Positions 1 to 21,129 are shown, counted from the stretch's first letter. The stretch: 32,000 nucleotides of DNA from Thermosulfurimonas dismutans (GCF_001652585.1 NZ_LWLG01000005.1:65895-97894), one strand, 5' to 3'. The notes: generated by a model from the sequence alone, not told the origin. Made by a program: numbers and translations.

Positions 1-900
1 ATCTAAACGGGCTTTCATAATAGGGCCCAGCAGGTCAAGCCGCCTTATGTCGAGCCACCGTTCATCCGGCCAATCTTTTAAAGGTTTACCTAAAACCTCC
101 TCCGAAAATTTGGAAGCGTCTGGACGCCATGGCTCATAAGTTCCGGCACTAAAATAACATATCACTTTCCGTCCCCGGCGATGGAGTTCCTGTATCACTT
201 CCACCGGGGTTCCAAAAAGATCCACATCAAACATTTCTGCCTCTACCGAAGTATCTATCTCGCCGGTTAGTTGCCATTGCCATGTGGTTCCCGGAGCCGG
301 TTTCCAGATCTCTTTTCCGGAACCGAAATCTATCAGGCCCAAAGCCTTTCGCAGAATCACCAGAGCATCACCGATGATGATTTGACCATCCGGATTCGGC
401 TGCTGGTTTTTTCCCAGCGGGGCTACATCGGCGTGACACCGATCCTCCTCCGTCACTATCTCAAGCCCTAGGGCGAAGCGCAGGGCTAACACGGCGTCAC
501 CAATATTTACCTGTCCGTCTCGTGATCCCTGTGGAGCCACATCGCCGTCGGGGATACATTCTGGCCCGTTTTTACACTCTCCAGCATAGGCCACATTTAC
601 TCCTGCCAGATGGGCCTCACAGGCATTGGCATAAGTTCGTCCATCGCACCCACAAACCGGATCATATACTTGAATACAGACTTCTGGAAGAGGAACACAC
701 GTTCCTGAACCACCACAACCCTCCTTCCGCCAGCAGAATTCACCTTTTTTACAATCCTGATTAGAAAAACAACCTGGGTATATTTCTTTACATCGCCCGG
801 GAGTTAAAAGAAAACCCAAAATGACTAAACCACACAGAACAAGATTAGATAGGATCTGAGCAAAAATTCTATAACTATACGGTCCAGTCCTGATCCCCAT
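1..900 (-). CDS. Secreted Kazal-like / dockerin-like / GH114-like (endo-alpha-1,4-polygalactosaminidase family) protein; 3' end lies beyond the window
   Basis: This gene is absent from the ORF track because it runs off the window. Manual minus-strand translation from the ATG at 900-898 gives 300 codons with no stop. It starts MGIRTGPYSYRIFAQILSNLVLCGLVILGF (signal/TM-like). A Kazal pattern follows at ~574-699 (VCIQVYDPVCGCDGRTYANACEAHLAGVNVAYAGEC), then a dockerin-like module at 325-558. The rest reads WQWQLTGEID..KVICYFSAGTYEPWRPD..WPDERWLDIR, which resembles the GH114/TM1410-type fold. A GGTGA Shine-Dalgarno sequence lies just upstream of the ATG. Confidence 0.8.
   Translation of the reverse strand, partial: MGIRTGPYSYRIFAQILSNLVLCGLVILGFLLTPGRCKEIYPGCFSNQDCKKGEFCWRKEGCGGSGTCVPLPEVCIQVYDPVCGCDGRTYANACEAHLAGVNVAYAGECKNGPECIPDGDVAPQGSRDGQVNIGDAVLALRFALGLEIVTEEDRCHADVAPLGKNQQPNPDGQIIIGDALVILRKALGLIDFGSGKEIWKPAPGTTWQWQLTGEIDTSVEAEMFDVDLFGTPVEVIQELHRRGRKVICYFSAGTYEPWRPDASKFSEEVLGKPLKDWPDERWLDIRRLDLLGPIMKARLD
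325..558 (-). other. Dockerin-like module (internal, between the Kazal-like and GH114-like domains)
   Basis: CIPDGDVAPQGSRDGQVNIGDAVLALRFALGLEIVTEEDRCHADVAPLGKNQQPNPDGQIIIGDALVILRKALGLIDF (manual translation). Confidence 0.75.
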
Positions 901-925
901 TCACCAATCAGATTATTTTGTATTT

Positions 926-3496
926 TTACCAGTTAACCAGTCCCAGAGCCTTTCTCAAGATTACCACCGCATCGCCAATGGTAATTTTACCGTCAGGCTG
1001 TGGCTTACCATCCTGTCCAAGCGGAGCCACATCCGCATGGCACAAATCCTCATCCGAGGGCCTCTCAAGCCCCAGGGCGAACCGTAAGGCTACCAGGGCA
1101 TCCCCGATGTTCACCTGACCATCACGGTTACCCAGCGGGGCTACGTCACCGTCAGGGGTGCACGTCCTTTTATATAAGGCTTTTACCACCGGCAATCTTA
1201 CCCCTAAATATTGATCTACAGGGGTAAAATCGTAGTATTTTTGAACAAAATCAGTTCTCAGGTGAAGCAAGGCGTACTTATCAGCATTATGAATGGAATA
1301 ACAAAAAAAGCCTTCCTCTAACTCACCAATGGGTTGCGCCACCGTAATACGGAAACTGGAGTCTTCAGGAGGCGGCGGAAGATACCACTCTGCTGGCCCT
1401 GTTATAGGTTCAACGGTAATAAAAGACGTAAATGGCCTGAAATCAAAACATATTTTTTCTTGGTAAACAAAAATCTCTGGAATAGGAGAAAAATTATTTA
1501 TTTCTTGGTAAAGCATGGCTTCAGGAGAAAAATCCCAATTATTTATTTCCGCAGAGTAAATAACCGAGGCGCCGTTGTACTGGGTAAGATTCAAAAGGTA
1601 GGAAGTTTCTGGCTCAAAGACCAGAAGGAAATCTCGTCCGGCTTCAGACAAGAGAGGGAGTCCACCCGTTGAGTCTTTCACCTGTCGCACAAAGAGTCGG
1701 ATTGATTTTAGATCGTTATTTTTAAATTCCTTGAGACTAAATGATTGCTGACTGTGAACCCGTATTTTGCGGGTGGGATGGGCTGATCCATTTACATAAA
1801 CTAGGACGAAATAGTCGCCAGACCCCTGTAGGCTGAACTCTAAGTTCTCCCTCTCCAATAGTTTCAATTCGGGAGGGTTGAAAGAAGGAATATTTTCATT
1901 AGTCCAGATAAAAAGTTTCTGCCATAGTTCGTCGTTATTATAGCCGAAAATCTGTGGAAAAACTTCTTCATGGGTTTGATAGGCAAGCAGGTTCCAGTAC
2001 TGAACGATTTTATCTTGCGGCTCTTTCACCCAAAAGATGGGGAAAATAATACCATTTAGGGAAGTGGACATGGTATAACATTCAGTAGCCGCTCCTCCAC
2101 AACGGTAAAATATCTCATCGGATCTCAGGTGTATAAAGTTTTCCAGCACACGGCTTGCCTCAAAAACCTCTTTAGCTGTGGCGTGGCGGGAATCTTGAGA
2201 ATAGCCGTAACCAGGGTTTCCAGCAAAAGTTACGACCAACCCTTCATTCCGCCACATAGGTATGATTTCATTTTCACCTCCAAAGGCCCGCGATAAATTG
2301 AGTATATGATCAAGAGCATGGGCTAATTCGTGTAAAAGTGTGTCCGCTGACGCGATGCCTGAAGAAATAGCTCCCAAAAGATGCCAAAAAGGTACTCCTG
2401 TTATATAACTTGCTAGCATCACGTTATTAGAACAATTATAATAATTGTCGTCGGAATTTCCGGATTCCAAATTACACAACTCTCTGGCAAAATTTATGTC
2501 AGTTGAATAATAATAGACAGCAATATTGGGAGCCCAATCCTTTTCAAATCCCCAGTATTTGAAGTACCCGGTATCTTTGGCTCTTTGAGAGTATTTTAAA
2601 AGCCTCTCCGCATAGGGTTTTATAAAAGACTTACTTTTTGGCCAGTAAACCACAAAGTTTTCACTAAAGAGACTGGATATTTCCGTAGTTGGTGGGCCAA
2701 CCACAACTACTGATTCAAAACATTCTTTCTCGTCTTCACTACAGACCTTGGGATAGTAAATGCCTGAACTACGGTATGAGTGATAGAATTCGCTTACTCT
2801 TGAATCAGTTTCAGTAAGACGGCTATCGAATTCTCCATCACCTTCAAAATCGAGTTTCAACTCGGGACAGAAATCGAAACACCAGATTTTAAAACGCATC
2901 TTTGCTCCTTGAAGAACGATACCCGGTTGTGGTTCAAATCTTTCAAGTTTAAAGGAACCTTCTCTAACAAAACGAATAAAGGGTCTCGGAACAAGACCAG
3001 AATTGTCGACACCTCCATAAGGATGATCTTCTCCCCACTCTAAACGCCACAACCATCTATCTCTTGAAACCATCCAGAATCCATCTTTTGGCCAGACGGG
3101 AGAATCTGCTATTACGGCCTGGCGATAGCCTTCGGCTTCCTGAAAATCGATTTTCAAATAAAAAAGCTTCTTTTGATCCAATTTGGGAACAGGAACCCTA
3201 AGCCATCCCGGCCCTTGGGATAAGGCTTCACCAACTTTTGTTTTAGATATGATTTCACTACCATTGATGGAAATCTCGTAGACCAAAAGTTTCGTTCCCG
3301 GAGCGTTCACAAGAACTTCAATGGCTACGGTGTTTTCGGGTGCTTCCACAACGATACCGGTGGTATCGCCCCATTCGGAAAGAGCAAAAGATCTTAAGGG
3401 CGGTATTGAGGTGGCATAAAACGGATAAAATACTTCTTGAGCGGCAACAGTTTGACACAAAACAAACAAAGAGAGAAATAAAAGAAAAGCTACCAT
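926..3496 (-). CDS. Secreted peptidase-MA-like (HExxH) protein with C-terminal dockerin-like module
   Basis: The ORF is 856 aa with a signal-like N-terminus (MVAFLLFLSLFVLCQTVAAQE). HELAHALDH is followed ~25 aa later by PMWRNEGL, a gluzincin / peptidase_MA-like arrangement (from family knowledge). The last 78 aa are the dockerin-like module. It is a full-length paralogue of 7421..10051. Its ATG overlaps the upstream stop (ATGGTAG, 3490-3496), suggesting translational coupling. Confidence 0.85.
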   Translation of the reverse strand: MVAFLLFLSLFVLCQTVAAQEVFYPFYATSIPPLRSFALSEWGDTTGIVVEAPENTVAIEVLVNAPGTKLLVYEISINGSEIISKTKVGEALSQGPGWLRVPVPKLDQKKLFYLKIDFQEAEGYRQAVIADSPVWPKDGFWMVSRDRWLWRLEWGEDHPYGGVDNSGLVPRPFIRFVREGSFKLERFEPQPGIVLQGAKMRFKIWCFDFCPELKLDFEGDGEFDSRLTETDSRVSEFYHSYRSSGIYYPKVCSEDEKECFESVVVVGPPTTEISSLFSENFVVYWPKSKSFIKPYAERLLKYSQRAKDTGYFKYWGFEKDWAPNIAVYYYSTDINFARELCNLESGNSDDNYYNCSNNVMLASYITGVPFWHLLGAISSGIASADTLLHELAHALDHILNLSRAFGGENEIIPMWRNEGLVVTFAGNPGYGYSQDSRHATAKEVFEASRVLENFIHLRSDEIFYRCGGAATECYTMSTSLNGIIFPIFWVKEPQDKIVQYWNLLAYQTHEEVFPQIFGYNNDELWQKLFIWTNENIPSFNPPELKLLERENLEFSLQGSGDYFVLVYVNGSAHPTRKIRVHSQQSFSLKEFKNNDLKSIRLFVRQVKDSTGGLPLLSEAGRDFLLVFEPETSYLLNLTQYNGASVIYSAEINNWDFSPEAMLYQEINNFSPIPEIFVYQEKICFDFRPFTSFITVEPITGPAEWYLPPPPEDSSFRITVAQPIGELEEGFFCYSIHNADKYALLHLRTDFVQKYYDFTPVDQYLGVRLPVVKALYKRTCTPDGDVAPLGNRDGQVNIGDALVALRFALGLERPSDEDLCHADVAPLGQDGKPQPDGKITIGDAVVILRKALGLVNW
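929..1162 (-). other. Dockerin-like module (C-terminal, 78 aa)
   Basis: CTPDGDVAPLGNRDGQVNIGDALVALRFALGLERPSDEDLCHADVAPLGQDGKPQPDGKITIGDAVVILRKALGLVNW. It consists of two related half-segments, each a loop plus an amphipathic helix. Confidence 0.75.
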
Positions 3497-4974
3497 GTTA
3501 TCAACCCCAATGCCTTCCGTAAAATTACTAGAGCGTCACCGATAGTTATCTGTCCATCCGGTGCCGGTACACCGTTTTCAATAGGAGCCACGTCCGCATG
3601 GCACTTATCCTCATCGCTTGGTGTCTCAAGCCCTAAAGCAAACCGCAGGGCCACCAGGGCGTCCCCAATGTTCACCTGACCGTCACGGTTCCCCAACGGG
3701 GCCACGTCGCCGTCGGGGGTGCAGTTCCCCCAACCGGGCCAAATGGCGGTATCTGTTTCGCTTATACGGAGGCGGAGCGTACGACCATCAGAAAGCTCGA
3801 AAGAAACCGTCTCTCCCAGTGTTCCATTTAGAGAAATTTTCAAAGTGTTTAAATCTATAAAATCCGCCGAAACAGAAACTCCTGAAGGATACCTATACCG
3901 ATAACTTCTGATAAGATCGGTGCCATTGGCCGGCACAAAATAAAAAGCATATGTCTGCCCTGAGCGTACCGGCAATTCTATATCGAAAGCATCAATCCTA
4001 TAATAAGGAAATTCGAGACTACGAGTGTAAAATTCCCAGGAAAAATCTTTTGTCTCTCCGTCTATGTTAAAAATAGCTTCTACGGTATATTTCTCTCCCC
4101 ATTCGAGTCTACTTTGAGGAAAAAGGGCAAATTCAAAAGCGGAAAATCTCCTGTTTGGATCAGAGGCTTCATCCATTAACAAAGTAGAAACCAAATTTCC
4201 CGCAGAATCATAAAGGTTAAAGCTGAACATTTGTACGGTATTTACTTTGTAAGGATTGAATTGTACGGAAATCGGATATCCGCTTACGCTTCGATCCGGC
4301 AAAGGATCAGGAAACTCTTCATAGAAGACCGGAGGAACGGTGTCTCCGGGAGGAGGCCATCTCACCACGAGAGGGTTATCGGTAGCCACGATTGAAGGAT
4401 CTTTTCTGGTGCCCAAATCGTAAACATAATAAACGGTTCCTCTATCATCAATAGCTTTTCCGAAACCTATTTCGTCAAAGTAAAAAGATAAAAAACCAAA
4501 GCGATGGTATATGGCCGAAAAGAGATCGTCTATGGATTCCTGAAAATTTTCCTCCCCCCAGGATAAATTTTCCCCGATTGCTTTATAGTTATAGCCTGCG
4601 GCCGCAGCTCGATCGGCCGGAGTCACACCGGTAAAATAAGGAAGCCCGGGAGTTTCAGTGTGCCCTATGTCCTGGTTGGTGGCTATGTAGCGGGCATGAG
4701 ACTCGGCAGCCTGCGTCAGGGCCTGATTTTCAGAAAAAGGAATCATACCCACCGAAGATCTCAAGGCGTTGAGATATTGGAGATAACTTCCATAAGCCTG
4801 GCGAGTAACACGAGAGGGTCCGTGAAAGAGCGGCCTTTGAAAAATTCTTTCTCGCCAACTCTCAACCCCCGCAAGGTCTCCGGAAAAACCGTGCTCCGGA
4901 AGGAAAGCCGCCCCCCATAAAATCAGTGCAAACCAAAAAACCTTACATAATTTGGGCCAGAGAGACTTTTTCAT
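3490..4974 (-). CDS. Secreted CAP/SCP (PR-1-like) domain protein with C-terminal dockerin-like module
   Basis: The ORF is 494 aa with signal peptide MKKSLWPKLCKVFWFALILWGAAF. A CAP-domain pattern runs at about aa 61-162 (YLNALRSSVGMIPFSENQALTQAAESHARYIATNQDIGHTE..DRAAAAGYNYKAIGENLSWG). An unassigned middle region follows. The terminal 77 aa (3493-3723) are the dockerin-like module. Confidence 0.85.
   Translation of the reverse strand: MKKSLWPKLCKVFWFALILWGAAFLPEHGFSGDLAGVESWRERIFQRPLFHGPSRVTRQAYGSYLQYLNALRSSVGMIPFSENQALTQAAESHARYIATNQDIGHTETPGLPYFTGVTPADRAAAAGYNYKAIGENLSWGEENFQESIDDLFSAIYHRFGFLSFYFDEIGFGKAIDDRGTVYYVYDLGTRKDPSIVATDNPLVVRWPPPGDTVPPVFYEEFPDPLPDRSVSGYPISVQFNPYKVNTVQMFSFNLYDSAGNLVSTLLMDEASDPNRRFSAFEFALFPQSRLEWGEKYTVEAIFNIDGETKDFSWEFYTRSLEFPYYRIDAFDIELPVRSGQTYAFYFVPANGTDLIRSYRYRYPSGVSVSADFIDLNTLKISLNGTLGETVSFELSDGRTLRLRISETDTAIWPGWGNCTPDGDVAPLGNRDGQVNIGDALVALRFALGLETPSDEDKCHADVAPIENGVPAPDGQITIGDALVILRKALGLITW
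3493..3723 (-). other. Dockerin-like module (C-terminal, 77 aa)
   Basis: CTPDGDVAPLGNRDGQVNIGDALVALRFALGLETPSDEDKCHADVAPIENGVPAPDGQITIGDALVILRKALGLITW. Confidence 0.75.
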
Positions 4975-5275
4975 TTTTATACACCAGCCATATATTTGAG
5001 TTAGAACGATCCAAAATAAGTTTCAAAGGGGCAGGTACCTTTTTTGGATACAAAATTACGGGCCTGGAGATTACCAGGGATCTCAAATTGGGCCTCAATT
5101 TTTCCTTTTCCTTATATGCTACCAGCACCTTTCGATTGTTTTCCAAAATCAAAACCTTGAGATCTCTAGCCACCAGTTCTCGAAAGAGCGGGCTATCGAA
5201 AATAAGAACCTTTTCTTTACGCACATAAAAATCCTTAGCCTCGAGATGTACGGTGAAGTTCCCTATATAAAACAC
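4943..5275 (-). CDS. Hypothetical small protein; start uncertain
   Basis: This 110-aa ORF starts at GTG and is co-directional with the cluster. It overlaps the next gene start by 32 nt. The same frame stays open upstream to ~5440 and there encodes a TM-like stretch (FVIILFLGGVFFGVIGWYLL) with no ATG/GTG/TTG. I recognised no family. Confidence 0.4.
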   Translation of the reverse strand: MFYIGNFTVHLEAKDFYVRKEKVLIFDSPLFRELVARDLKVLILENNRKVLVAYKEKEKLRPNLRSLVISRPVILYPKKVPAPLKLILDRSNSNIWLVYKNEKVSLAQIM

Positions 5276-5442
5276 AAAATGGACATCACGGAGATATTTT
5301 CCCGCCGAAGCAAAGCGCGAAAGGGAGTTAGCAGGGGAAACCGACGATTTTTCTGTTGTTTTAAGGTGAAGCAGATACCATCCTATTACACCAAAGAAAA
5401 CACCACCCAGAAATAAAATTATTACAAATTTCTGTTTAAAAG

Positions 5443-7344
5443 TTATGGTCCTATCTCCGGAAGGAATTTTAATGTTTTGCTATCATAGCCAGAAACAGAA
5501 GTGAAGCTAAAATCGAGATAGAATCTATTTCGAGCGTCGCTTCTAACAAGAGAATTGTAAACCCCGGGATACATAATCTCGACTCCGTAAGGTTCTATAG
5601 CAACCCAAGTATTTACGGAACTCCAGAGTCCCATTCCTCCTTCATAAGCATCACAGGAAAATTCATAGTATCTACCACAATTTAGATTTACCTCATAAAA
5701 AAATCCCGGAGCATGGGCCATAAAATCCACCCCGAAGGAGCCGTTTTCGCTGGCCAACCGCGGATTTGATACGTAAACAAAGAAATCACCGCTTGCGTTT
5801 CGTGCGATCTTGACCACGATGCCGTTTTGGTTGTAAAAAATCGGCACTGCACCCCAATCCGTAGCGTTTCCGTCTATCGCTATGTCAGCTTCTGGTATAA
5901 CGTAGGTCTCAAGGGGCTCATCCCAGTCTATCATTTCCACTCCGGATCGGAAAAGCTCTATTCTAGTCCGATTGGCATAATCCATAAAAACATCTCCAAA
6001 AAGAAGAGCCCTAGGCGTGATTTGACCGCTTACAAGATCGTAAACCGTGGCGTTTCCGGTAGAAGTTGCGTATTCTAAATAAATATCGAATTTTCTTTTG
6101 GGGTAATAGTAACCGTCGCCACCGTCCACATAATGCAGGGTCTCGTTGGCGGCTACGATCCAGGCCAATTCGGCTGAAGGATCACTGAAGGCGGTCTCAA
6201 GACTCGCAAGCACCCTTGTCGCGGCCTGGGCTATGACCACCGAGGCTGGATCATCCAGGTTAAAGGCATGGTTCTGTCTGGCCCTGAGCGCCTCTTCCGA
6301 AAGCGTCGCAAATTCGTTCACTATTTCCTCAAAAGTTTGTCTAGCCTGCGAAAAGGCCTGCTTGAATTCTTCAAGTTTGGACGGGTCTCTATAGGTTAGG
6401 AGTTGGGTATTGTTCATAAAAAATGTATATAGGGTTTCGTTGGAAGTTCCGTTAAAGGAAGTGCCATTCAGGGTTCCGTTTGCTACCAGAAGGAGATCCC
6501 TTATATCCGTGCCGTTCACCAACCAGTTGTTAGCGCTTATATCCAGGGATTCGATATAAAGGCAGACGGCCTTCCAGAACTTAGCCAGAAATCGCATGAT
6601 TTTAACATCCAGCGCATCAAAATACACCGTAGTCCCGTCGGGAAAGGTAAGACTGGCCAGATTACCAGCCGCCCGGGTTCCGGAAGCGGCAAGGACCTGC
6701 GAAAACTCGGCATCGGCCTGATCCAGCCTGGAAATCACATCCACCATCACGGTAAGGATTTCTCCGGCATAGTCTGGAGCCGTGAGAAGATTATAGAGAA
6801 TGTTAGCGGAAGAAGCATTGACGGTATCCAGGTCTACCTTGAGAACCTGGTTGAAGAAATCCCGATGATCGTTATACACCGTAAAAAGCAGGCCTGCTCC
6901 TTTCAGGATACGAGCCTCAGAGGTGTTCGGAACGGCATTAAACATATCCAGCAATTGTGTGTAATTTCCTTCCGAGGGATTTTCCAGGAAATCAATCAAG
7001 GCCTCCTTTAGATCTTCTACCGTTGCGGCATTCCAGCTTACGAGCTGAAGGGCCTTGCGCAGGATCACAAGCGCATCCCCGATGGTAATCTTCCCATCGG
7101 GATTCGGCATACCGTCCGCCCCGAGAGGGGCTACATCCGCATGACATGTATCCTCCTGGGTGGGCGCCTCAAGTCCTAAAGCAAAACGCAGAGTAACCAG
7201 GGCGTCACCTATATTCACCTTTCCATCGCGATTCCCCAGCGGAGCCACGTCGCCGTCGGGCGTGCAGAGCGCCAATCCAATGGCCCCAAACATTCCCCAC
7301 CAGGCGAAAAGGATCAAAAGGAACTTTACAAGCCATCCTTTCAT
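5443..7344 (-). CDS. Secreted protein with N-terminal dockerin-like module; remainder unassigned
   Basis: The ORF is 633 aa with signal peptide MKGWLVKFLLILFAWWGMFGAIGLAL. The dockerin-like module (7033-7266) follows immediately. I could not assign the remaining ~530 aa to any family. Confidence 0.85.
   Translation of the reverse strand: MKGWLVKFLLILFAWWGMFGAIGLALCTPDGDVAPLGNRDGKVNIGDALVTLRFALGLEAPTQEDTCHADVAPLGADGMPNPDGKITIGDALVILRKALQLVSWNAATVEDLKEALIDFLENPSEGNYTQLLDMFNAVPNTSEARILKGAGLLFTVYNDHRDFFNQVLKVDLDTVNASSANILYNLLTAPDYAGEILTVMVDVISRLDQADAEFSQVLAASGTRAAGNLASLTFPDGTTVYFDALDVKIMRFLAKFWKAVCLYIESLDISANNWLVNGTDIRDLLLVANGTLNGTSFNGTSNETLYTFFMNNTQLLTYRDPSKLEEFKQAFSQARQTFEEIVNEFATLSEEALRARQNHAFNLDDPASVVIAQAATRVLASLETAFSDPSAELAWIVAANETLHYVDGGDGYYYPKRKFDIYLEYATSTGNATVYDLVSGQITPRALLFGDVFMDYANRTRIELFRSGVEMIDWDEPLETYVIPEADIAIDGNATDWGAVPIFYNQNGIVVKIARNASGDFFVYVSNPRLASENGSFGVDFMAHAPGFFYEVNLNCGRYYEFSCDAYEGGMGLWSSVNTWVAIEPYGVEIMYPGVYNSLVRSDARNRFYLDFSFTSVSGYDSKTLKFLPEIGP
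7033..7266 (-). other. Dockerin-like module (N-terminal, directly after the signal peptide)
   Basis: CTPDGDVAPLGNRDGKVNIGDALVTLRFALGLEAPTQEDTCHADVAPLGADGMPNPDGKITIGDALVILRKALQLVSW. Confidence 0.75.
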
Positions 7345-10051: not shown

Positions 10052-10097
10052 CCTACATTACACAGGTCGAAAATACACTCAATGTCTCCTTCAAAAC

Positions 10098-15616: not shown

Positions 15617-15652
15617 ATCTTGCCCCCTCCCCTTAATCGTATCTTGCCCCCC

Positions 15653-15868
15653 CTATTCACACCCTAGCACCGTCAGTCTTGCCCTACACCTAACTGCATG
15701 GCCGTCGAGGTCGAAGTAGGTGGCGGAAGCACCGAAATCGTTTGCGGTAAGGGTGGTTCTGCCTTCGTCTTTCACCACAAAGGCCAGGTGCACCAGCGGA
15801 GAGCCATTAGCGGGATGACCCGGAGCGTTCATAAGTCCTACCTCGCAGTAGAACTTTTGGCCCCCCAA
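15653..15868 (-). pseudogene. 5'-truncated relic of a lipoprotein-type cohesin-like gene
   Basis: The 71-aa ORF (..VGLMNAPGHPANGSPLVHLAFVVKDEGRTTLTANDFGASATYFDLDGHAVRCRARLTVLGCE) aligns with the C-terminal half of the 10098..10916 cohesin-like module (VGVMNASGLPSNGASLVKMVFRLKGEGDSVLSASDFQVHSSCFDLDGRSVGCRPHLIVSECN). The N-terminal half, linker and signal are missing. Its apparent start sits inside a terminator hairpin. Confidence 0.65.
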
Positions 15869-15895
15869 AATAGCGGGGGGCTTTGCGCCCCCCGC
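15867..15895 (-). terminator. Rho-independent terminator downstream of the 923-aa lipoprotein gene
   Basis: On the minus strand: GCGGGGGG (15895-15888), 7-nt loop, CCCCCCGC (15880-15873), then TATTTT. This is a perfect 8-bp GC stem plus a T-tract, 9 nt after the stop codon at 15904. Confidence 0.7.
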
Positions 15896-15903
15896 CGATT
15901 AGA

Positions 15904-18675
15904 TTACTGACAGGTAAATTCCACTATCTGTGCCGGACAAGCAAAAGTATTCCCGGAAAGATCCGAACAGGTAGCATTACCATCAGGAATAATTGCAAGC
16001 TCGCTCTCCTGAGGCTCACTACACAATCCCTGATTCTGAGGAGTTGAGAAGGTAAGCTTAAGCACCGCTGAGCCGTCCGCAGGAAATCCACCGGCTGAAA
16101 TGAGCCCAATCTTCACATGGGTTCCATTATCATTGGGAACCACCAGTCCTCCCTGAGCCGCTCCAATAGCTACCACATTATCAAATCCAAGCGCAGTCTC
16201 TGGATAGTCCACGGTCACATCCACTCCTCCAATCGTACCATTGGCCGTAACCCCGAGCTTCAGTGTGCAGGTGTAAGCCTTGGGCTGAGTCACCCCGACC
16301 GAGGTCTGGCCGGACACACCATCCACCGTCACCCGCACCGTGGAATTCTGACTGCCGGCGGTAAGCGTCACCGCAGCCACCCCTACCTTATCTACATCGT
16401 TCCAGCCGATGGGAATGCTCACCTGGCTCAACACTCCATCACCCTGAGTCACCTCAAAAGCCGCATCTCCTATGGCATCCTTGTTAGTGCAGGAATCGAA
16501 ATCAGCAAGGTGAATGGTGGCCTTGATGGTGGAGTTGCCCCCGGCGCACACGGTAGCAGGCTCGGCCCGCACATCAATTCCCGTAACCGTGCACGGATCC
16601 TGAGCCACCTGAATGGCAACCTCGTTGGAAGTTTTGCCCTCAGAGGTGGCCTTCACCTTGACCTCACCCGGAGCGTTAACCGTGAGCGTGGTGCTAGCCT
16701 TACCGGTGGCATCGGTCTGAGCCGTAGGCGGATTCACGTACCCATCACCGCTCACTACCTCAAAGGTCACCTCTTTGCCCGAAAGATCGCCGCACTGCTC
16801 GGCATTAACCACCTGCACCTGAGCCATAAGTTGTGTGCTGTCTCCGGCCGTAAGAGAGGTTTTATTGGCGCTAAGCGTCACCCCCGTAACCGTACACGGA
16901 TGTTCCGCCACCTGAATAGTAACCTCGTTGGAAGTCTTGCCCTCAGAGGTGGCCTTCACCTTGATCTCCCCCGGAGCATTGGCCGTAAGGGTGGTGCTGG
17001 CATTACCACTAGCATCCGTCACCGTCGTGGCCGGGTTCACCGTCCCATCTCCGCTCACCACCTCAAAGGTCACCTGCTTTCCGGAAAGATCAGCACAGAT
17101 ATCCGGATTGACTACTTCTACTTGGGCCGTGAGATTGGCACTCTCGCCCGCCACGACCGAAATAGGGGTGGCGTTAAGGCTTACCGCCTTAACCGCACAC
17201 GGATCAGGGGCCACGTAAGACATAGCAACCCTACGATGTATTCCAGTGCAGGGATCCTCCACCAAAGCTACTAATTTAGCCATACCGGCTCCCTGAACTT
17301 CCAGTGGCGCTACCGCATATCCATCAGTATCAATATCTACTTCTATCTCCTTCTTTCCACCTGTGAAAGTAACCTGGCCTTTCACAATCTTAAATGTCAC
17401 CTTTCCGGAAGGAGTGCCATTTCCGGAAAGCGGAGCTACCATGGCTTTCACTTTCCATTGATTAGTAGTTTGATCAAAATATATCCCAGCCATTGAAATC
17501 TCATCCACACTATCAGCATTGCAAACCTTAATCAGCACGGGATTGGAGGTCCGGTTATCACTAGTTACAGCCGTAATCCTGAACACACTTCCCGCCGGAG
17601 CACTTCCGGCACATACTTGAGCGGAAGCTTCAGTAAGCGTATTACCCTGAACAGGATTGGGATTTATAGCAAGGGTGCCATTGGTGGCATTCCCTACAGG
17701 CATAGCGTCAAAAGCAATCTCACTTATCTGAGGCCCCTCTCCACATCCTATTACACCCGCGATTTTTGCCGTAAGTTTGCTACACACCTGTCCATCGGAA
17801 GAAATAATTATCCTATCTCCCGAAAGACCTACAGCATAAGAACAATAATTCTGAAGTGTAGAGCCGATCTGATCCAAAATATTTGTATAATTACCTGAAA
17901 TGGGGTTTCCGTTTACTTGCCCATCCATAACACCATCTTGGAGGTCCTGAAGAAGAGCTACAAACCCCTGCAACAACTTCTCCCACAGTGAAAGGAAATC
18001 CGTCTGAATCTGAAGGAGACGGCTTATGGCATCCGCCAGAACTCTATTATAAGGCGGCTCGTAATCCCTTATGCTAAAATGGTGCTCCGTAAAAAGTTTT
18101 TTGATATATTCTTCTCTTTCGCTACCGAATTCCTCTCGAGCCCGTTCTCGGACGTGGTACACCAGTGTCCTTACGGGCTCAAATTCCGGATCGTTTTCAA
18201 TTTGCGTAAAATTGTCACTATGTTTTTCCACTAGAGCACTGGTATCCACAGTAAGAAAGGCATAATATAGGGCACCTGAAATAATATCTGCCCCTTTGTG
18301 AACTACATTTCCATCTTCGTCCATAATAAACCCTTGGAGAGGAGGAGCCGCCAGAGTATCATTTCCGACCTGCATGGTACCGTTCTCACTCTTCAATGTA
18401 AGCCGAGTACAATTAGCTACCTCCACAGGATTTAGCTTGAACTGAAAATTTCCCTCCCCATCCGTTTGTCCGAGCTTCTTCAATTTCTTTCCGTCACACA
18501 GGAGCCACACAGTAGCGTTAGCCACCGGGTCCTTACTCACACTTCCAACGACCGTGGCTCCAGAGGTGGTACCGGAAGTCTCCTCTCCGCCACCACCTCC
18601 ACCACCTCCACAGGCCACAAGCAGCAAAGGAAGCACAAATACCCATAACCACAAACCCAACCTTCTCCAACTCAT
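15904..18675 (-). CDS. Lipoprotein with poly-Gly linker, CarboxypepD_reg-like and Big-like Ig repeats, and a C-terminal cohesin-like module (candidate anchoring scaffoldin)
   Basis: The ORF is 923 aa. It starts MSWRRLGLWLWVFVLPLLLVACGGGGGGGGEE (lipobox LVAC). VVGSVSKDPVANATVWLLCDGKKLKKLGQTDGEGNFQFKL resembles a carboxypeptidase-regulatory-like fold. Three Big-like repeats are present, two of them near-identical. The cohesin-like module is at 15907-16284. A GAAGGGGG Shine-Dalgarno sequence precedes the ATG. Confidence 0.9.
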   Translation of the reverse strand: MSWRRLGLWLWVFVLPLLLVACGGGGGGGGEETSGTTSGATVVGSVSKDPVANATVWLLCDGKKLKKLGQTDGEGNFQFKLNPVEVANCTRLTLKSENGTMQVGNDTLAAPPLQGFIMDEDGNVVHKGADIISGALYYAFLTVDTSALVEKHSDNFTQIENDPEFEPVRTLVYHVRERAREEFGSEREEYIKKLFTEHHFSIRDYEPPYNRVLADAISRLLQIQTDFLSLWEKLLQGFVALLQDLQDGVMDGQVNGNPISGNYTNILDQIGSTLQNYCSYAVGLSGDRIIISSDGQVCSKLTAKIAGVIGCGEGPQISEIAFDAMPVGNATNGTLAINPNPVQGNTLTEASAQVCAGSAPAGSVFRITAVTSDNRTSNPVLIKVCNADSVDEISMAGIYFDQTTNQWKVKAMVAPLSGNGTPSGKVTFKIVKGQVTFTGGKKEIEVDIDTDGYAVAPLEVQGAGMAKLVALVEDPCTGIHRRVAMSYVAPDPCAVKAVSLNATPISVVAGESANLTAQVEVVNPDICADLSGKQVTFEVVSGDGTVNPATTVTDASGNASTTLTANAPGEIKVKATSEGKTSNEVTIQVAEHPCTVTGVTLSANKTSLTAGDSTQLMAQVQVVNAEQCGDLSGKEVTFEVVSGDGYVNPPTAQTDATGKASTTLTVNAPGEVKVKATSEGKTSNEVAIQVAQDPCTVTGIDVRAEPATVCAGGNSTIKATIHLADFDSCTNKDAIGDAAFEVTQGDGVLSQVSIPIGWNDVDKVGVAAVTLTAGSQNSTVRVTVDGVSGQTSVGVTQPKAYTCTLKLGVTANGTIGGVDVTVDYPETALGFDNVVAIGAAQGGLVVPNDNGTHVKIGLISAGGFPADGSAVLKLTFSTPQNQGLCSEPQESELAIIPDGNATCSDLSGNTFACPAQIVEFTCQ
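15907..16284 (-). other. Cohesin-like module (lipoprotein type, Cys-rich C-terminus)
   Basis: CTLKLGVTANGTIGGVDVTVDYPETALGFDNVVAIGAAQGGLVVPNDNGTHVKIGLISAGGFPADGSAVLKLTFSTPQ...CSDLSGNTFACPAQIVEFTCQ. Confidence 0.6.
16600..17205 (-). repeat. Tandem 2 x 303-bp coding repeat (Big-like Ig domains); a third, divergent copy follows at ~16285-16599
   Basis: Unit A is DPCAVKAVSLNATPISVVAGESANLTAQVEVVNPDICADLSGKQVTFEVVSGDG..IKVKATSEGKTSNEVTIQVAE. Unit B is HPCTVTGVTLSANKTSLTAGDSTQLMAQVQVVNAEQCGDLSGKEVTFEVVSGDG..VKVKATSEGKTSNEVAIQVAQ. Long stretches are identical at the nucleotide level, e.g. aacctcgttggaagt(t/c)ttgccctcagaggtggccttcaccttga. Confidence 0.85.
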
Positions 18676-18777
18676 AGCTTTACCCCCTTCTATTTGTTTT
18701 TTAGAAATTTTTTTTCGTAGCTTTTCAAATCTCGCTTTTACAATTACCTTTAATTTGTTTGTTAAGTACTGGTATCA

Positions 18778-21129
18778 TCATGAAACCAATCCCAGGGCCA
18801 TGCGCAGGATCACCAGGGCGTCGCCGATGGTGATCTTGCCATCCGGCTGGGGTGTTCCGTCCGCCGCAAGCGGGGCCACATCCGCGTGGCATTTGTCTTC
18901 CTCCGAAGGTGTCTCAAGCCCCAAGGCAAACCGCAGGGTCACCAGAGCGTCACCGATATTCACCTTTCCGTCCCGGGCACCCAGCGGGGCCACGTCCCCG
19001 TCCGGCGTGCAGAGAGGAGGAACGGGCACGGTGAAGTTCCACCGCTCGGACTGAACCGCCCCACCCTTCCCATCCGAAGCCTCCACATACCAGTAATAAG
19101 TAGTTCCATTCTCAAGATCGGCGATGGTGCAGGTGGTCTGCGTTATACCTATACATCCCACAACTGGATGAAAACTCTCCTCCCCCTGTCTGGCAAGAAA
19201 AACGGTATATCTTACGGTGTCGTTTTCACTATCCAAAGAAGCCTGCCAGGAAAGGGTTACCGGGGCCGGGGTCTCACTTCCGGACTCAGGTGATATTAAT
19301 GCCGGTGCGGAAGGGGGAGTATTGTCCTCAAAGGAGATCACTCCACCGTCGGTGGCGGCATACCACCGAGAGCCTATCTTCACCAGGTCGTAAAGAGTGT
19401 AGAGATCATTTATAAAATATTGAAATCTCGTCCAGGTCTTTCCCCCGTCTTTGGACTGGTAAAGGCCGTTGTCGGTGCGAGCGAAAAATCGAGAAGGATC
19501 TTCAGGATCAGGATATACCTTGTACACCTCCTGCACCCCAGCAAGACTTACTTTCTGAAAAGAACCAGTGTCCTGGTAATATATATAAAGACCATTTCGG
19601 GTGGAAACGAAGGCCTTACCGGAGAAGAGCTGAATATCGTTTATATCCTTTATTCCGGTGTCTCGCCAGGTGCTACCGTTGTCGGAGGAAACAAAAAGAT
19701 GTTTTTCATAATTCACACTGCTTACGGCATAAATTGTTCCCCGTTCCATGTCATAAGCCACCTCACTTACACTTCCGTCCGTTGGCCCGGATATGAACCC
19801 CCAAGTCTCCCCTCCGTCAGTGCTCATATAAATGCCATATCCCTGCCCCCCATCCCAGGAAGAAAGGTAACCCGCAACCCATATCTCAAGAGGATGATTT
19901 TTAGGATCCGGAAAATAATAGTCGTAAAGGGAGCCTTTCCATATCACCGAACAGTTATCGAAATCGAGAGAACACCGACTGAAATGGGTGTACTCCGTCT
20001 CGTAATAAGCGTAATCTCCCACCACGGTAAAAGTTTTGAAATCCTCATAAGGCCTTGCGGGTTCTTTAAAAAGTTCCCACCTTTTTTTCTTAAACGAGTA
20101 CTTATAAATTCCCTTTCTATCAATATCAATTGTAGCCCAAAGGTCGCCAGAGGAATCCTTTTCTAAAAATTTAAGACTATATCCGGTGGCCACTCCATAC
20201 TTTTGCCATGTATTTCCGCCATCGGTGGAAATTTCGAGATAGCCGTTCCTTCCGAGCCAGATAGTCTCTCCCCGTACCGCCACGGAATAAACCGCCTCCG
20301 GGGCGATAAAGCTCCAGGTTTGGCCCTGATCGTCCGAACGATAAAGACCTCCACTGGTGGCCAGCCAGATATGCCCCTGGGAATCAATAACCGCATCGTT
20401 TACATAATCCGAAAGACCGAGCTCCCGAAAACTTCCCCCGGTGTCCGTAGAGATGTAGCCCTTTCCCCCACCTATTACCAGAACTGGATTTCCGTTTCTC
20501 GCGGCGGAGATTTTTATTCCATCATACCAATCCTTGGGAAGCCCGGTTCCCACCTTCTCCCAGGAGAGCCCTCCGTCATCGGAACGATATAAACCCTCAG
20601 CTTCTATATAAACATAAACTCGGTTATCATAGAAAGGAGAAAACCAAATATTTGAATAGTAATTTGAAATATTTAACACCTTTAAAAAATTTTTCCCTTC
20701 ATCTTGTGAAAAATAAATTGCATCTCCTTCCAACCCAACTAAAATTTGAGATCCTTGAGCCTGAATGTCATAAATGTTTCCTTTAAATGTAAAAAGATCA
20801 TACCAATTTCGACCTCCATCTCCAGAAATCATTAAAATGCCATAATTACTACTATATAACCGATAAGGATCCTCCTGATCTACGGCAAGCGGAAGTCTTG
20901 TGGAGACCCGCACAAAATGGCGACCGCCGTCGCGGCTCTGGTAAAGTACACCACCACAAATCACGTAAAGGAACGTACCGTTGGAGGATTCCGGAAGCAG
21001 GATTTCTACCCGGCCACAGGAGGTAACGACCAGGTCCTCACTTGGTCCCAGATGCTCCACCCCTTCCACCATTGCCATAAGAGGCGTAGACCAAATAAAC
21101 AAGAGAAGGAAAGTCAAAAACATCCTCAA
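18778..21129 (-). CDS. Secreted BNR/Asp-box repeat beta-propeller protein with FN3-like domain and C-terminal dockerin-like module
   Basis: The ORF is 783 aa with signal peptide MRMFLTFLLLFIWSTPLMAM. It has about 10 Asp-box motifs (SRDGGRHF, SGDGGRNW, SQDEGKNF, SDDGGLSW, STDTGGSF, SDDQGQTW, STDGGNTW, STDGGETW, SSDNGSTW, SKDGGKTW). An FN3-like segment reads VTLSWQASLDSENDTVRYTVF..TTYYWYVEASDGKG. The dockerin-like module is at 18781-19011. A strong AAGGAGG Shine-Dalgarno sequence lies 10 nt upstream of the ATG. Confidence 0.9.
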   Translation of the reverse strand: MRMFLTFLLLFIWSTPLMAMVEGVEHLGPSEDLVVTSCGRVEILLPESSNGTFLYVICGGVLYQSRDGGRHFVRVSTRLPLAVDQEDPYRLYSSNYGILMISGDGGRNWYDLFTFKGNIYDIQAQGSQILVGLEGDAIYFSQDEGKNFLKVLNISNYYSNIWFSPFYDNRVYVYIEAEGLYRSDDGGLSWEKVGTGLPKDWYDGIKISAARNGNPVLVIGGGKGYISTDTGGSFRELGLSDYVNDAVIDSQGHIWLATSGGLYRSDDQGQTWSFIAPEAVYSVAVRGETIWLGRNGYLEISTDGGNTWQKYGVATGYSLKFLEKDSSGDLWATIDIDRKGIYKYSFKKKRWELFKEPARPYEDFKTFTVVGDYAYYETEYTHFSRCSLDFDNCSVIWKGSLYDYYFPDPKNHPLEIWVAGYLSSWDGGQGYGIYMSTDGGETWGFISGPTDGSVSEVAYDMERGTIYAVSSVNYEKHLFVSSDNGSTWRDTGIKDINDIQLFSGKAFVSTRNGLYIYYQDTGSFQKVSLAGVQEVYKVYPDPEDPSRFFARTDNGLYQSKDGGKTWTRFQYFINDLYTLYDLVKIGSRWYAATDGGVISFEDNTPPSAPALISPESGSETPAPVTLSWQASLDSENDTVRYTVFLARQGEESFHPVVGCIGITQTTCTIADLENGTTYYWYVEASDGKGGAVQSERWNFTVPVPPLCTPDGDVAPLGARDGKVNIGDALVTLRFALGLETPSEEDKCHADVAPLAADGTPQPDGKITIGDALVILRMALGLVS
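18781..19011 (-). other. Dockerin-like module (C-terminal, 77 aa)
   Basis: CTPDGDVAPLGARDGKVNIGDALVTLRFALGLETPSEEDKCHADVAPLAADGTPQPDGKITIGDALVILRMALGLVS. Confidence 0.75.

What the first reader, a model, noticed from the sequence alone, without database searches (positions are those of the whole stretch)
325..19011. Atypical, almost invariant 78-aa dockerin-like module with paired Cys and expanded D-V-A-P-L-G loops, used at N-terminal, internal and C-terminal positions
The seven copies are at 325-558, 929-1162, 3493-3723, 7033-7266, 7424-7657, 10925-11158 and 18781-19011. They share C-[TI]-P-D-G-D-V-A-P-L-G-x-R-D-G-x-V-N-I-G-D-A-L-V-x-L-R-F-A-L-G-L-E ... C-H-A-D-V-A-P-L-G-x-D-G-x-P-x-P-D-G-K-I-T-I-G-D-A-L-V-I-L-R-K-A-L-G-L. 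The two-fold internal symmetry and the loop-helix layout are dockerin-like. However, each putative Ca-binding loop is lengthened by an A-P-L-G-type insertion compared with the classical 12-residue D-x-N-x-D-G loop. Each half is also preceded by a conserved Cys (C1 and C41), which could form a disulfide or bind metal. The host proteins are otherwise unrelated, yet the modules are nearly identical in protein sequence while differing at many synonymous sites. For example, 7424-7657 versus 18781-19011 reads gatccttccgtccggctgcggcgtgcc versus gatcttgccatccggctggggtgttcc. This points to strong purifying selection on a shared binding partner rather than recent copying. Placement directly after a signal peptide (633-aa protein) and between domains (first gene) is unusual for dockerins.
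Basis: seen in the sequence. Interest (0 to 1): 0.7.

Follow-up and report, generated by a model that had tools for sequence, protein, structure and literature searches.

The report
Loop-expanded dockerins with neighbouring cohesins
The repeated 78-residue module is a real but unusual dockerin (a protein "plug") carried by at least seven secreted proteins of the heat-loving vent bacterium Thermosulfurimonas dismutans. The matching cohesin "sockets" lie in the same gene cluster, so this is a non-cellulose-degrading version of a known protein-assembly system, not a new kind of element.

Summary
Seven 77-78-aa modules sit at the stated coordinates, all on the minus strand. They are 71-92% identical in protein but only 68-80% in DNA. 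Synonymous sites are saturated (dS ≥ 1) and dN/dS is 0.02-0.16, so they are old copies under purifying selection, not recent duplications.

The module is a dockerin. It matches Pfam Dockerin_1 at 26.5 bits (cut-off 22.9). The AlphaFold2 model (pLDDT 96) has only dockerins from cohesin-dockerin complexes as its 13 best PDB matches. The Asp ligands at Ca-loop positions 1, 5 and 12 are conserved.

Both loops are longer than the classical 12 residues (16 and 20-21), each through a conserved V-A-P-L insert. This defines a large subfamily (1,494 cluster representatives at E ≤ 1e-10), mainly in Thermodesulfobacteriota and Desulfobacterota.

The Cys pair is specific to this lineage but covaries strongly, which suggests a disulfide.

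RefSeq and UniProt already label several of these proteins dockerin or cohesin.

Verdict: a new variant of a known kind, of modest interest.

The parts
325..558 (-). Dockerin copy 1. Internal, between a Kazal domain and the GH114 catalytic domain of the partial first gene.
   Evidence: Translation. Pfam Kazal and GH114 on either side. Module HMM 155 bits.
929..1162 (-). Dockerin copy 2, C-terminal in the 856-aa protein.
   Evidence: RefSeq names the host 'dockerin type I repeat-containing protein'.
3493..3723 (-). Dockerin copy 3, C-terminal in the 494-aa CAP-domain protein. Loop 2 is one residue shorter.
7033..7266 (-). Dockerin copy 4, directly after the signal peptide of the 633-aa protein.
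   Evidence: Pfam Dockerin_1 26.5 bits on the isolated module. AF2 model pLDDT 96. Foldseek matches to dockerins.
7424..7657 (-). Dockerin copy 5, C-terminal in the 876-aa paralog of the 856-aa protein.
   Evidence: Named a dockerin protein by RefSeq and UniRef.
10925..11158 (-). Dockerin copy 6, at the C-terminus of the 1567-aa adaptor, one residue after its second cohesin.
18781..19011 (-). Dockerin copy 7, C-terminal in the 783-aa BNR/sortilin-fn3 protein. It lacks the final aromatic residue.
31132..31299 (-). Eighth dockerin copy, decayed. It follows a Kazal-like remnant and has an in-frame stop, lost Asp and Pro residues and a deletion in loop 2.
   Evidence: Module HMM 59 bits, model positions 1-58 only. 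Translation. BLASTP to the first gene's Kazal+dockerin: 5e-26, 41% identity.
11549..11917 (-). Cohesin 1 of the 1567-aa adaptor protein.
   Evidence: Pfam Cohesin PF00963, 41.6 bits against a cut-off of 24.1. Coordinates.
11171..11548 (-). Cohesin 2 of the 1567-aa adaptor protein.
   Evidence: BLASTP to cohesin 4: 2e-9. Member of the four-sequence profile that hits PDB 2xdh at 2.7e-9.
10101..10487 (-). Cohesin 3, the C-terminal domain of the 272/276-aa lipoprotein (lipobox LVAC, then a long Gly/Ser/Glu-rich linker).
   Evidence: AF2 pLDDT 86, nine strands. The top 20 Foldseek PDB matches are all cohesins, with 2xdh first. BLASTP to cohesin 4: 9e-20. UniRef calls the shorter annotated form 'Cohesin domain-containing protein'.
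15907..16305 (-). Cohesin 4, the C-terminal domain of the 923-aa lipoprotein (lipobox LVAC, Big_1/PKD Ig-like domains).
   Evidence: BLASTP to the Pfam-validated cohesin 1: 2e-15. Domains. Coordinates.
15659..15844 (-). Fragment of a fifth cohesin (C-terminal half only), in the gap between the 923-aa and 1567-aa genes.
   Evidence: Cohesin HMM 31 bits, model positions 67-127. Translation. 46% identical to cohesin 3.
1..21129 (-). Co-directional cluster of nine genes. The last three genes listed carry the four cohesins; seven of the nine carry a dockerin. Genes: <1-900, 926-3496, 3490-4974, 5443-7344, 7421-10051, 18778-21129, 10098-10928, 10913-15616 and 15904-18675. Gaps run from 468 nt down to short overlaps.
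   Evidence: ORF list. Domain content.

Best explanation
The module is a true dockerin of a loop-expanded subfamily. Its likely function is to plug the proteins that carry it into the cohesin modules encoded in the same gene cluster, assembling a multi-protein complex on the surface of Thermosulfurimonas dismutans.

Proposed assembly (inferred):
- Two lipoproteins (272/276 aa and 923 aa) each carry a lipobox and one C-terminal cohesin. They act as membrane anchors.
- The 1567-aa protein carries two cohesins followed directly by a dockerin. It acts as an adaptor that multiplies docking sites and could also chain onto itself.
- The cargo consists of the Kazal-GH114 protein, two HExxH-bearing paralogs, a CAP-domain protein, a BNR/sortilin-fn3 protein and a 633-aa protein of unknown function. 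This points to matrix remodelling or adhesion, not cellulose breakdown.

Each half of the module is an F-hand: a loop plus a helix. The Asp residues at loop positions 1, 5 and 12 and a polar residue at position 9 are kept, so Ca2+-dependent folding is expected. A conserved V-A-P-L insert between positions 2 and 3 lengthens loop 1 to 16 residues. The same insert plus about five more residues lengthens loop 2 to 20-21.

The nearly invariant helices 1 and 3 would form the cohesin-binding face. Selection for that shared interface explains why seven old, synonymously saturated copies keep the same protein sequence.

In this lineage a Cys before loop 1 and a Cys in helix 2 probably form a stabilising disulfide. 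This would be a covalent counterpart, though between different segments, of the non-covalent 'intramolecular clasp' between dockerin termini.

Shown here: the fold, homology, selection, and co-location with cohesins. Inferred: Ca2+ binding, the actual cohesin-dockerin pairing, surface anchoring and the disulfide.
For: Dockerin identity:
- Pfam Dockerin_1 above its cut-off.
- AF2 pLDDT 96 with the three-helix layout.
- The 13 best PDB matches are all dockerins from cohesin-dockerin complexes: query-normalised TM-score (TMq) 0.57-0.70 (0.42 for rank 12), rmsd 1.8-3.6 A (5.5 for rank 12).
- Relatives bridge to canonical dockerins, with a 12-residue loop 1 and an extended loop 2.
- Ligand positions across 191 modules: D 95-100% at position 1, 92-96% at position 5, 99-100% at position 12, and N/D/T/S at position 9. 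The insert is A 91-97%, P 98-99%.

Selection:
- dN/dS is 0.02-0.16 with saturated dS.
- In the paralog pair, module dN is 0.108 against 0.224 for the rest of the protein.
- The helices are 12/15 and 11/14 invariant, against 8/18 in loop 2.
- A decayed eighth copy shows what happens without selection.

Partners:
- Pfam Cohesin 41.6 bits on cohesin 1.
- Pairwise BLASTP links all four cohesins, 2e-15 to 2e-9.
- The four-sequence profile hits the A. fulgidus cohesin 2xdh at 2.7e-9.
- The AF2 model of cohesin 3 matches only cohesins in its top 20.

The same layout recurs in other genomes. L001 has three dockerin proteins next to a Big_1+cohesin protein and an N-terminal-cohesin protein. L027 and L028 each have a cohesin fused directly to a dockerin.

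Lipoboxes and signal peptides were read directly.

Cys covariation: 13 modules have both, 1 has the first only, 3 the second only, 107 neither (Fisher 6e-14). On the relaxed test the counts are 17/7/0/99, so the linker Cys never occurs without an N-terminal Cys.

Databases agree in part, with 'dockerin type I repeat-containing protein' and 'Cohesin domain-containing protein'.
Against: - No binding or Ca2+ data exist.
- The loops are 4 and 8-9 residues longer than any canonical EF/F-hand loop, so the Ca2+ geometry could differ or be lost.
- Position 3 is Ala in two of the seven copies.
- Pfam scores fall below the cut-off for the most divergent copy (14.9 bits) and for the modules scored inside whole proteins (17.8-20.6 bits).
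- Three of the four cohesins are not detected by Pfam.
- Single-sequence searches against PDB are not significant.
- All dockerins are of one type, so nothing shows which cohesin binds which dockerin.
- The Cys-Cys distance could not be measured because the tool returns no coordinates.
- The organism lives in reducing, sulfidic fluids, where exposed disulfides may be unstable.
- Many Cys-pair carriers are close relatives, so the Fisher p-value overstates independence.
Confidence: 0.8

Rival explanations
1. The similarity reflects recent duplication or ongoing gene conversion of a mobile cassette, not selection on function.
For: There are many copies in one cluster, and an IS transposase lies nearby at 21490-22368. 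One pair shares a 33-nt identical run.
Against: Nucleotide identity is only 68-80%. The proportion of synonymous differences is 0.55-0.80, i.e. saturated, while dN is 0.07-0.23. No long identical tracts exist. Homologous modules with the same motifs occur in many other genomes.
Confidence: 0.02
2. The module is a sorting, secretion or cell-surface-retention tag recognised by an export or anchoring machine. Alternatively it is a free-standing Ca2+-stabilised structural cap. Either way it is not a cohesin-binding plug.
For: Most copies are C-terminal on otherwise unrelated secreted proteins (107 of 143 full-length family members), the distribution typical of sorting domains. No binding data exist.
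Against: The module also occurs directly after signal peptides and internally, which C-terminal sorting signals do not tolerate. It has a dockerin fold. Four cohesins sit in the same cluster and in related clusters elsewhere. NCBIfam gave no hit and the only Pfam hit beyond Dockerin_1 was a sub-threshold MTIP_N match.
Confidence: 0.07
3. It is a dockerin-fold module whose partner is not the local cohesins. The partner could be an exopolysaccharide, an outer-membrane component, or a cohesin on another species' cell, as proposed for adhesins in ANME-SRB consortia.
For: The conserved V-A-P-L inserts create surface absent from characterised dockerins. Cohesin/dockerin proteins of syntrophic sulfate reducers and ANME have been proposed as inter-partner adhesins (PMC10553843, PMC9012536). 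There are more dockerins (at least 10 in the genome) than cohesins found (4).
Against: Cohesins and dockerins are tightly co-clustered and co-directional here, and likewise in L001, L027 and L028. Excess of dockerins over cohesins is normal in cellulosomes (established knowledge). T. dismutans grows in pure culture (PMC4911364).
Confidence: 0.1

Closest known systems
Type I dockerin-cohesin pairs of the Clostridium thermocellum cellulosome (PDB 1OHZ, 2CCL, 4FL4, 4DH2)
   Same: Both have two tandem F-hand loop-helix repeats, a three-helix fold (query-normalised TM-score 0.57-0.70, rmsd 1.8-3.1 A), Asp at loop positions 1, 5 and 12, and a conserved Arg at position 18 of each helix. Both sit mainly at the C-terminus of secreted proteins, with cohesin-bearing scaffold proteins in the genome.
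   Different: - Loops are 16 and 20-21 residues instead of 12, through a conserved V-A-P-L insert.
- Positions 10-11 are Ile/Val-Gly instead of Ser-Thr.
- A Cys pair is present in this lineage.
- The cargo is not cellulolytic.
- Anchoring is by lipoprotein instead of SLH domains or sortase, in a diderm thermophile.
- Sequence identity is only 21-29%.
Non-cellulosomal cohesin-dockerin of Archaeoglobus fulgidus (cohesin structure PDB 2XDH)
   Same: 2XDH is the best sequence match (profile E 2.7e-9) and the best structural match for the window's cohesins. Both come from a thermophilic, sulfur-metabolising, non-cellulolytic organism.
   Different: A. fulgidus is an archaeon with few modules and no multi-cohesin scaffold (as summarised in PMC9012536). 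Here there are four cohesins, including a cohesin-cohesin-dockerin adaptor and two lipoprotein anchors. Whether the A. fulgidus dockerin has the V-A-P-L insert was not checked.
Cohesin/dockerin 'adhesin' gene sets of syntrophic sulfate-reducing bacteria (HotSeep-1, Seep-SRB1g, Seep-SRB2) and ANME archaea (Murali et al. 2023, PMC10553843; Chadwick et al. 2022, PMC9012536)
   Same: Both belong to the same broad bacterial group (Desulfobacterota/Thermodesulfobacteriota) and are non-cellulosomal. Both combine dockerins with Ig-like, fn3 and PKD domains, and include proteins with a dockerin plus several cohesins. The genome scan found this subfamily mainly in such lineages.
   Different: Those reports are domain-annotation surveys. 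They do not describe loop architecture, the Cys pair, lipoprotein anchoring or selection. T. dismutans is a free-living autotroph, not a syntrophic partner.
Ruminococcus flavefaciens dockerins and the 'intramolecular clasp' (Slutzki et al. 2013, PMC3821032)
   Same: That work shows dockerin stability and cohesin binding depend on contacts made by the residues just before the first Ca loop. The Cys before loop 1 here sits in that N-terminal segment. The invariant C-terminal Trp/Phe and the Pro at -3 could form an aromatic-proline clasp (inference).
   Different: The known clasps are non-covalent and link the N- and C-termini. The link proposed here is a covalent disulfide between the N-terminal segment and helix 2, and it is untested.

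Membership tests
Dockerin (Pfam PF00404 Dockerin_1; F-hand pair) | Profile match at or above the curated Pfam gathering score | tested here: inconclusive
   The isolated copy 7033-7266 scores 26.5 bits against a cut-off of 22.9 (met). Copy 325-558 scores 14.9. Whole-protein scans give 17.8 and 20.6 bits, or no hit. Only 6 of 51 close homologs carry a precomputed PF00404 hit.
Dockerin (Pfam PF00404 Dockerin_1; F-hand pair) | Two tandem loop-helix repeats with internal two-fold sequence symmetry | tested here: met
   Residues 14-33 and 57-76 are identical at 14 of 20 positions. Each half has D-V-A-P-L ... D-G-x-[VI]-x-I-G-D-A-L-V-x-L-R.
Dockerin (Pfam PF00404 Dockerin_1; F-hand pair) | Three-helix dockerin fold | tested here: met
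   AF2 pLDDT 96, helices at 19-29, 37-43 and 62-72. Foldseek PDB ranks 1-13 are all dockerins from cohesin-dockerin complexes, with probability 0.75-1.00 for 12 of them.
Dockerin (Pfam PF00404 Dockerin_1; F-hand pair) | Ca2+-ligand residues at loop positions 1, 3, 5, 9 and 12 | tested here: met
   Across 191 modules: position 1 is D 95-100%, position 5 is D 92-96%, position 12 is D 99-100%, position 9 is N/D/T/S. Position 3 is weaker, N/S/D/A.
Dockerin (Pfam PF00404 Dockerin_1; F-hand pair) | Canonical 12-residue EF-hand-type loop | tested here: not met
   Loop 1 has 16 residues in 131 of 148 modules. Loop 2 has 20-21 residues in 182 of 188. In this window the lengths are 16 and 20-21.
Dockerin (Pfam PF00404 Dockerin_1; F-hand pair) | Ca2+-dependent folding and specific binding to a cohesin | not testable with these tools
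   This needs ITC, ELISA or native PAGE with recombinant modules, with and without EDTA.
Dockerin (Pfam PF00404 Dockerin_1; F-hand pair) | Cohesin modules encoded in the same genome | tested here: met
   Four cohesins and one fragment lie within the same 21-kb cluster.
Cohesin (Pfam PF00963), for the proposed partner modules | Profile match above the gathering score | tested here: inconclusive
   Cohesin 1 scores 41.6 bits against a cut-off of 24.1. Cohesins 2-4 give no Pfam hit. They are linked to cohesin 1 by BLASTP at 2e-15, 9e-20 and 2e-9.
Cohesin (Pfam PF00963), for the proposed partner modules | Nine-stranded beta-sandwich fold like solved cohesins | tested here: met
   The cohesin 3 model has pLDDT 86 and nine strands. 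The top 20 Foldseek PDB matches are all cohesins, with 2xdh, 2jh2 and 2y3n first. Only cohesin 3 was modelled.
C-terminal sorting or anchoring signals (PEP-CTERM, LPXTG, T9SS CTD and similar) | Strictly C-terminal position, with a hydrophobic helix and basic tail or a beta-sandwich CTD | tested here: not met
   One copy is N-terminal and one internal. In the family, 21 are N-terminal and 15 internal. The fold is helical, with no terminal transmembrane segment.
Classical EF-hand pair (calmodulin-like) | Helix-loop-helix, with an entering E helix before each loop | tested here: not met
   Residues 1-18 are coil in the model, so no helix precedes loop 1. No EF-hand Pfam family was hit.

The most novel reading that the evidence does not exclude
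The V-A-P-L-insert dockerins and their divergent cohesins, which Pfam mostly misses, could be a distinct cohesin-dockerin type. It would be characteristic of Thermodesulfobacteriota and Desulfobacterota.

In this reading the conserved insert contributes new interface or changes the Ca2+ coordination. A lineage-specific disulfide clamps the module for use at 65-75 C. Direct cohesin-dockerin fusions (a linker of about 1-6 residues in the 1567-aa protein, L027 and L028) would let the adaptor polymerise head-to-tail into a lipoprotein-anchored extracellular lattice. That lattice would display matrix-remodelling proteins.
Probability: 0.3. Interest if true: 0.55.

Novelty: new variant of a known kind. 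Interest (0 to 1): 0.38.

Why it matters
Cohesin-dockerin pairs are the standard connectors of natural and designer multi-enzyme complexes. The stable, orthogonal pairs known from thermophiles are few.

This locus offers a complete and compact candidate system from a bacterium grown at 65 C. It has two anchors, one adaptor and at least seven cargo proteins. The dockerin subtype has lengthened Ca loops, and in this lineage a covarying Cys pair.

Testing the system would address two questions:
- Whether an F-hand can hold Ca2+ with 4-9 extra loop residues.
- What non-cellulolytic bacteria of hydrothermal and sulfidic habitats assemble on their surface.

It also shows that Pfam under-detects both partner modules in this lineage, so such systems are probably under-counted in Desulfobacterota genomes.

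Tried and rejected
- Single-module phmmer against PDB gave only non-significant hits, with dockerins at E 0.5-1. The fold search was needed.
- Single-cohesin phmmer against PDB was weak, E 0.09-0.25. The four-sequence profile and pairwise BLASTP settled it.
- NCBIfam has no model for the module or for the cohesins.
- The word-indexed homolog search found only one relative with the cohesin profile and none with cohesin 4 alone. The spread of the cohesin subfamily could therefore not be mapped.
- The look-up of encoding contigs had no record for two window proteins. The contig left of the window, which holds two more dockerin proteins (OAQ20903 and OAQ20908), could not be read.
A 10-sequence alignment worked.
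- Peer et al. 2009 (PMC3035643) is not held.
- No paper pairs 'DVAPL' with dockerin, or T. dismutans with dockerin.
- A lipobox reading of the N-terminal copy (…GLALC) was rejected. Leu at -1 does not fit the [LVI][ASTVI][GAS]C rule, and other N-terminal examples do not fit it either.
- Recent duplication or gene conversion was rejected on dS.
- The Cys-Cys distance in the AF2 model could not be read, because coordinates are not returned.

Full report
**Observation**

The seven intervals all translate, on the minus strand, to a 77-78-residue module.

Five copies are C-terminal, in the 856-, 494-, 876-, 1567- and 783-aa proteins. One follows the signal peptide of the 633-aa protein. One lies between a Kazal domain and a GH114 domain in the partial first gene.

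'Almost invariant' is too strong: pairwise identity is 71-92% and 50 of 78 positions are invariant. Two hosts, the 856- and 876-aa proteins, are paralogs and not unrelated.

**Selection**

I built a codon alignment and made Nei-Gojobori estimates:
- Nucleotide identity is 68-80%.
- The proportion of synonymous differences is 0.55-0.80, so dS runs from about 1 to saturated.
- dN is 0.07-0.23 and dN/dS is 0.02-0.16.

The longest identical run between any two copies is 33 nt. In the paralog pair the module has half the dN of the rest of the protein: 0.108 against 0.224, or 86% against 68% identity.

Variation is concentrated in the linker and the loop-2 insert. The two long helices are 12/15 and 11/14 invariant.

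An eighth copy at 31132-31299, preceded by a Kazal-like remnant, gives a natural contrast. It is clearly homologous to the first gene's Kazal+dockerin (BLASTP 5e-26). It has an in-frame stop, has lost D6 and P9, and carries a deletion in loop 2.

Recent duplication or gene conversion is therefore rejected. Purifying selection on the protein is supported.

**Identity of the module**

- The isolated module passes Pfam Dockerin_1 at 26.5 bits against a cut-off of 22.9. The most divergent copy and the whole-protein scans fall below the cut-off.
- An AlphaFold2 model built on a 28-sequence alignment has pLDDT 96, with helices at 19-29, 37-43 and 62-72.
- Its 13 best PDB matches are all dockerins from cohesin-dockerin complexes. 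For 12 of them the query-normalised TM-score is 0.57-0.70 and rmsd 1.8-3.6 A; rank 12 (2vn5_D) is weaker at 0.42 and 5.5 A.

I numbered the loops from the invariant Asp at helix position 12 (D21 and D64). The classical ligand positions are then occupied:
- Position 1: D6 and D44.
- Position 5: D14 and D57.
- Position 9: N18 and T61.
- Position 12: D21 and D64.

Across 191 family members these are D 95-100%, D 92-96%, N/D/T/S and D 99-100%.

What is unusual is the length. Loop 1 has 16 residues. Loop 2 has 20-21.

More distant relatives have an ordinary G-D-x-N-x-D-G first loop and an extended second loop. A few have a 16-residue second loop. The extensions are therefore insertions into a normal F-hand, placed between positions 2 and 3. 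The insert itself is highly conserved: A 91-97%, P 98-99%, L 75-95%.

**The family**

A profile search of 1.84 billion cluster representatives found 4,244 proteins at E ≤ 1e-3, 1,494 at E ≤ 1e-10 and 71 at E ≤ 1e-30.

Among the 190 proteins examined, 107 modules are C-terminal, 21 follow a signal peptide, 15 are internal and 48 are on fragments. N-terminal and internal placement is thus a recurring trait of this subfamily.

A scan of one genome per species returned 57 loci:
- More than 25 come from a single Thermodesulfobacteriota MAG.
- Others come from Deltaproteobacteria and Desulfobacteraceae MAGs and from Desulfothermus okinawensis.
- More distant matches (43-52% identity) come from Geobacter, Desulfuromonadaceae and one Armatimonadota MAG.

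**Source and existing annotation**

Exact-sequence look-ups place the window in Thermosulfurimonas dismutans, on a 97,894-bp contig (OAQ20910-OAQ20926). This is a deep-sea-vent thermophile cultivated at 65 C (PMC4911364).

More module-bearing proteins lie outside the window: OAQ20903, OAQ20908 and OAQ19878.

RefSeq and UniRef already call the 633-, 856- and 876-aa proteins 'dockerin type I repeat-containing' or 'Dockerin domain-containing'. UniRef calls the short annotated form of the 276-aa protein 'Cohesin domain-containing'. The other four hosts are named only after other domains.

The genome paper does not mention cohesins or dockerins. No paper in the library pairs the organism or the DVAPL motif with dockerin.

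**The partners**

- The 1567-aa protein has a Pfam Cohesin hit of 41.6 bits, followed by a second cohesin-like module. Its dockerin begins one residue after that.
- The 272/276-aa and 923-aa proteins both start with a lipoprotein signal (…L-V-A-C-G-G-G, read). Both end in a related module.
- Pairwise BLASTP links the four modules: 2e-15, 9e-20 and 2e-9.
- Their joint profile hits the Archaeoglobus fulgidus non-cellulosomal cohesin 2XDH at 2.7e-9.
- An AF2 model of the small lipoprotein's module (pLDDT 86, nine strands) has only cohesins among its top 20 PDB matches.
- A half-cohesin fragment sits at 15659-15844.

All nine genes from 1 to 21129 are on the minus strand, with short gaps or overlaps.

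A lineage-specific cohesin HMM also finds cohesins beside these dockerins in other genomes:
- L001 has three dockerin proteins, then a Big_1+cohesin protein and an N-terminal-cohesin protein.
- L027 and L028 each have a cohesin fused directly to a dockerin.
- L041 also has a cohesin.

Pfam misses all of those cohesins.

**Mechanism**

The best-supported reading is a non-cellulosomal cohesin-dockerin assembly:
- Two lipoprotein anchors.
- One cohesin-cohesin-dockerin adaptor.
- A set of dockerin-tagged secreted proteins: Kazal-GH114, CAP, two HExxH paralogs, BNR/sortilin-fn3 and one of unknown function.

The cargo suggests matrix remodelling or adhesion, as proposed for the cohesin/dockerin proteins of syntrophic sulfate reducers and ANME (PMC10553843, PMC9012536).

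Fold, homology, selection and co-location are shown. Ca2+ binding, the actual pairing, the anchoring and any polymerisation of the adaptor are inferred.

The two halves are similar (14 of 20 positions identical), so a dual binding mode is possible. However, a family-wide difference at one helix position, F28 against K71, suggests the two faces may not be equivalent.

**The cysteines**

The Cys pair is not a family feature. Of 124 modules with both D-V-A-P motifs:
- 13 have both Cys.
- 107 have neither.
- 1 has only the first.
- 3 have only the second, and those 3 carry a Cys shifted by one or two positions.

With a relaxed window the counts are 17 both, 7 N-terminal only, 0 linker only and 99 neither. 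Fisher's p is about 1e-15, inflated by relatedness.

This covariation points to a disulfide between the N-terminal segment and helix 2. That would be a plausible heat-stabilising, covalent counterpart of the non-covalent terminal clasp known in dockerins (PMC3821032), although it would link different segments.

The same window encodes other folds generally regarded as disulfide-dependent (Kazal, WSC, PAN), so extracytoplasmic disulfides seem feasible in this organism. A metal site involving the adjacent His42 is not excluded, although that His is 83% conserved whether or not the Cys are present.

The Cys-Cys distance could not be measured, because model coordinates are not returned.

**Verdict**

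This is a loop-expanded subfamily of a well-known module, in a cohesin-dockerin system of a known general kind. Parts of it are already labelled in public databases. The points not found in the literature searched here are the conserved V-A-P-L loop insertions, the covarying Cys pair, and the lipoprotein-anchored organisation in a thermophilic sulfur disproportionator.

Interest is modest, mainly for protein-engineering use and for understanding surface assemblies in Desulfobacterota-type bacteria.

Noticed in passing
window 31105-31470 (-): This is a decayed paralog of the first gene's Kazal+dockerin N-terminal part (41% identity, BLASTP 5e-26), with an in-frame stop. Its tail ('VILRKDLEVIDF') is read as the start of the annotated 528-aa ORF 29565-31151. 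The true start of that ORF is probably the downstream 'MRGASLL…' signal peptide.
   Followed up: partly
window 15656-15898 (-): The C-terminal half of a cohesin (46% identical to the small lipoprotein's cohesin) lies in the 287-nt gap between the 923-aa and 1567-aa genes. It is probably a pseudogene fragment left by a rearrangement.
   Followed up: partly
window about 13500-15600: The 5' third of the 1567-aa gene is 31-36% GC, against 45-57% in the rest of the cluster. It encodes an Ile/Lys/Asn/Tyr-rich N-terminal region with no Pfam hit. The gene looks mosaic.
   Followed up: no
window 10098-10928 (-): GenBank and RefSeq annotate only a 142-aa C-terminal product (OAQ20915.1). The 272-aa reading, with a perfect lipoprotein signal (LILVAC) and a long Gly/Ser/Glu-rich linker, exists as an exact sequence in other assemblies. 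It changes the interpretation from a free cohesin to an anchored one.
   Followed up: partly
window 926-3496 and 7421-10051 (-): The two 856/876-aa paralogs have no Pfam or NCBIfam hit outside the dockerin. Each carries an HExxH motif (HELAH and HESAH), so they could be unrecognised zinc metallopeptidases.
   Followed up: no
window 23722-26346 (-): An 874-aa secreted protein has two WSC domains and a PAN domain. These Cys-rich carbohydrate- or protein-binding modules are better known from eukaryotes. The protein has no dockerin.
   Followed up: no
window 21490-22368 (+): An IS-type transposase gene (HTH plus rve_3 integrase core) sits directly at the right-hand edge of the cohesin-dockerin cluster. 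It is the only large + strand gene in the window.
   Followed up: no
L027 (ORF 2-4528), L028 (ORF 1-2949) and window 11171-11158 junction: In three proteins from three organisms a cohesin is followed by the dockerin after only about 1-6 residues. Such tight fusions could favour head-to-tail self-assembly over intramolecular binding.
   Followed up: no
window cohesins 3 and 4 (10101-10487, 15907-16305): The two lipoprotein-borne cohesins and the cohesin fragment carry several Cys each, at aligned positions near the first strand and the C-terminus. The adaptor's cohesins lack most of these. This suggests two cohesin subtypes and further disulfides.
   Followed up: no
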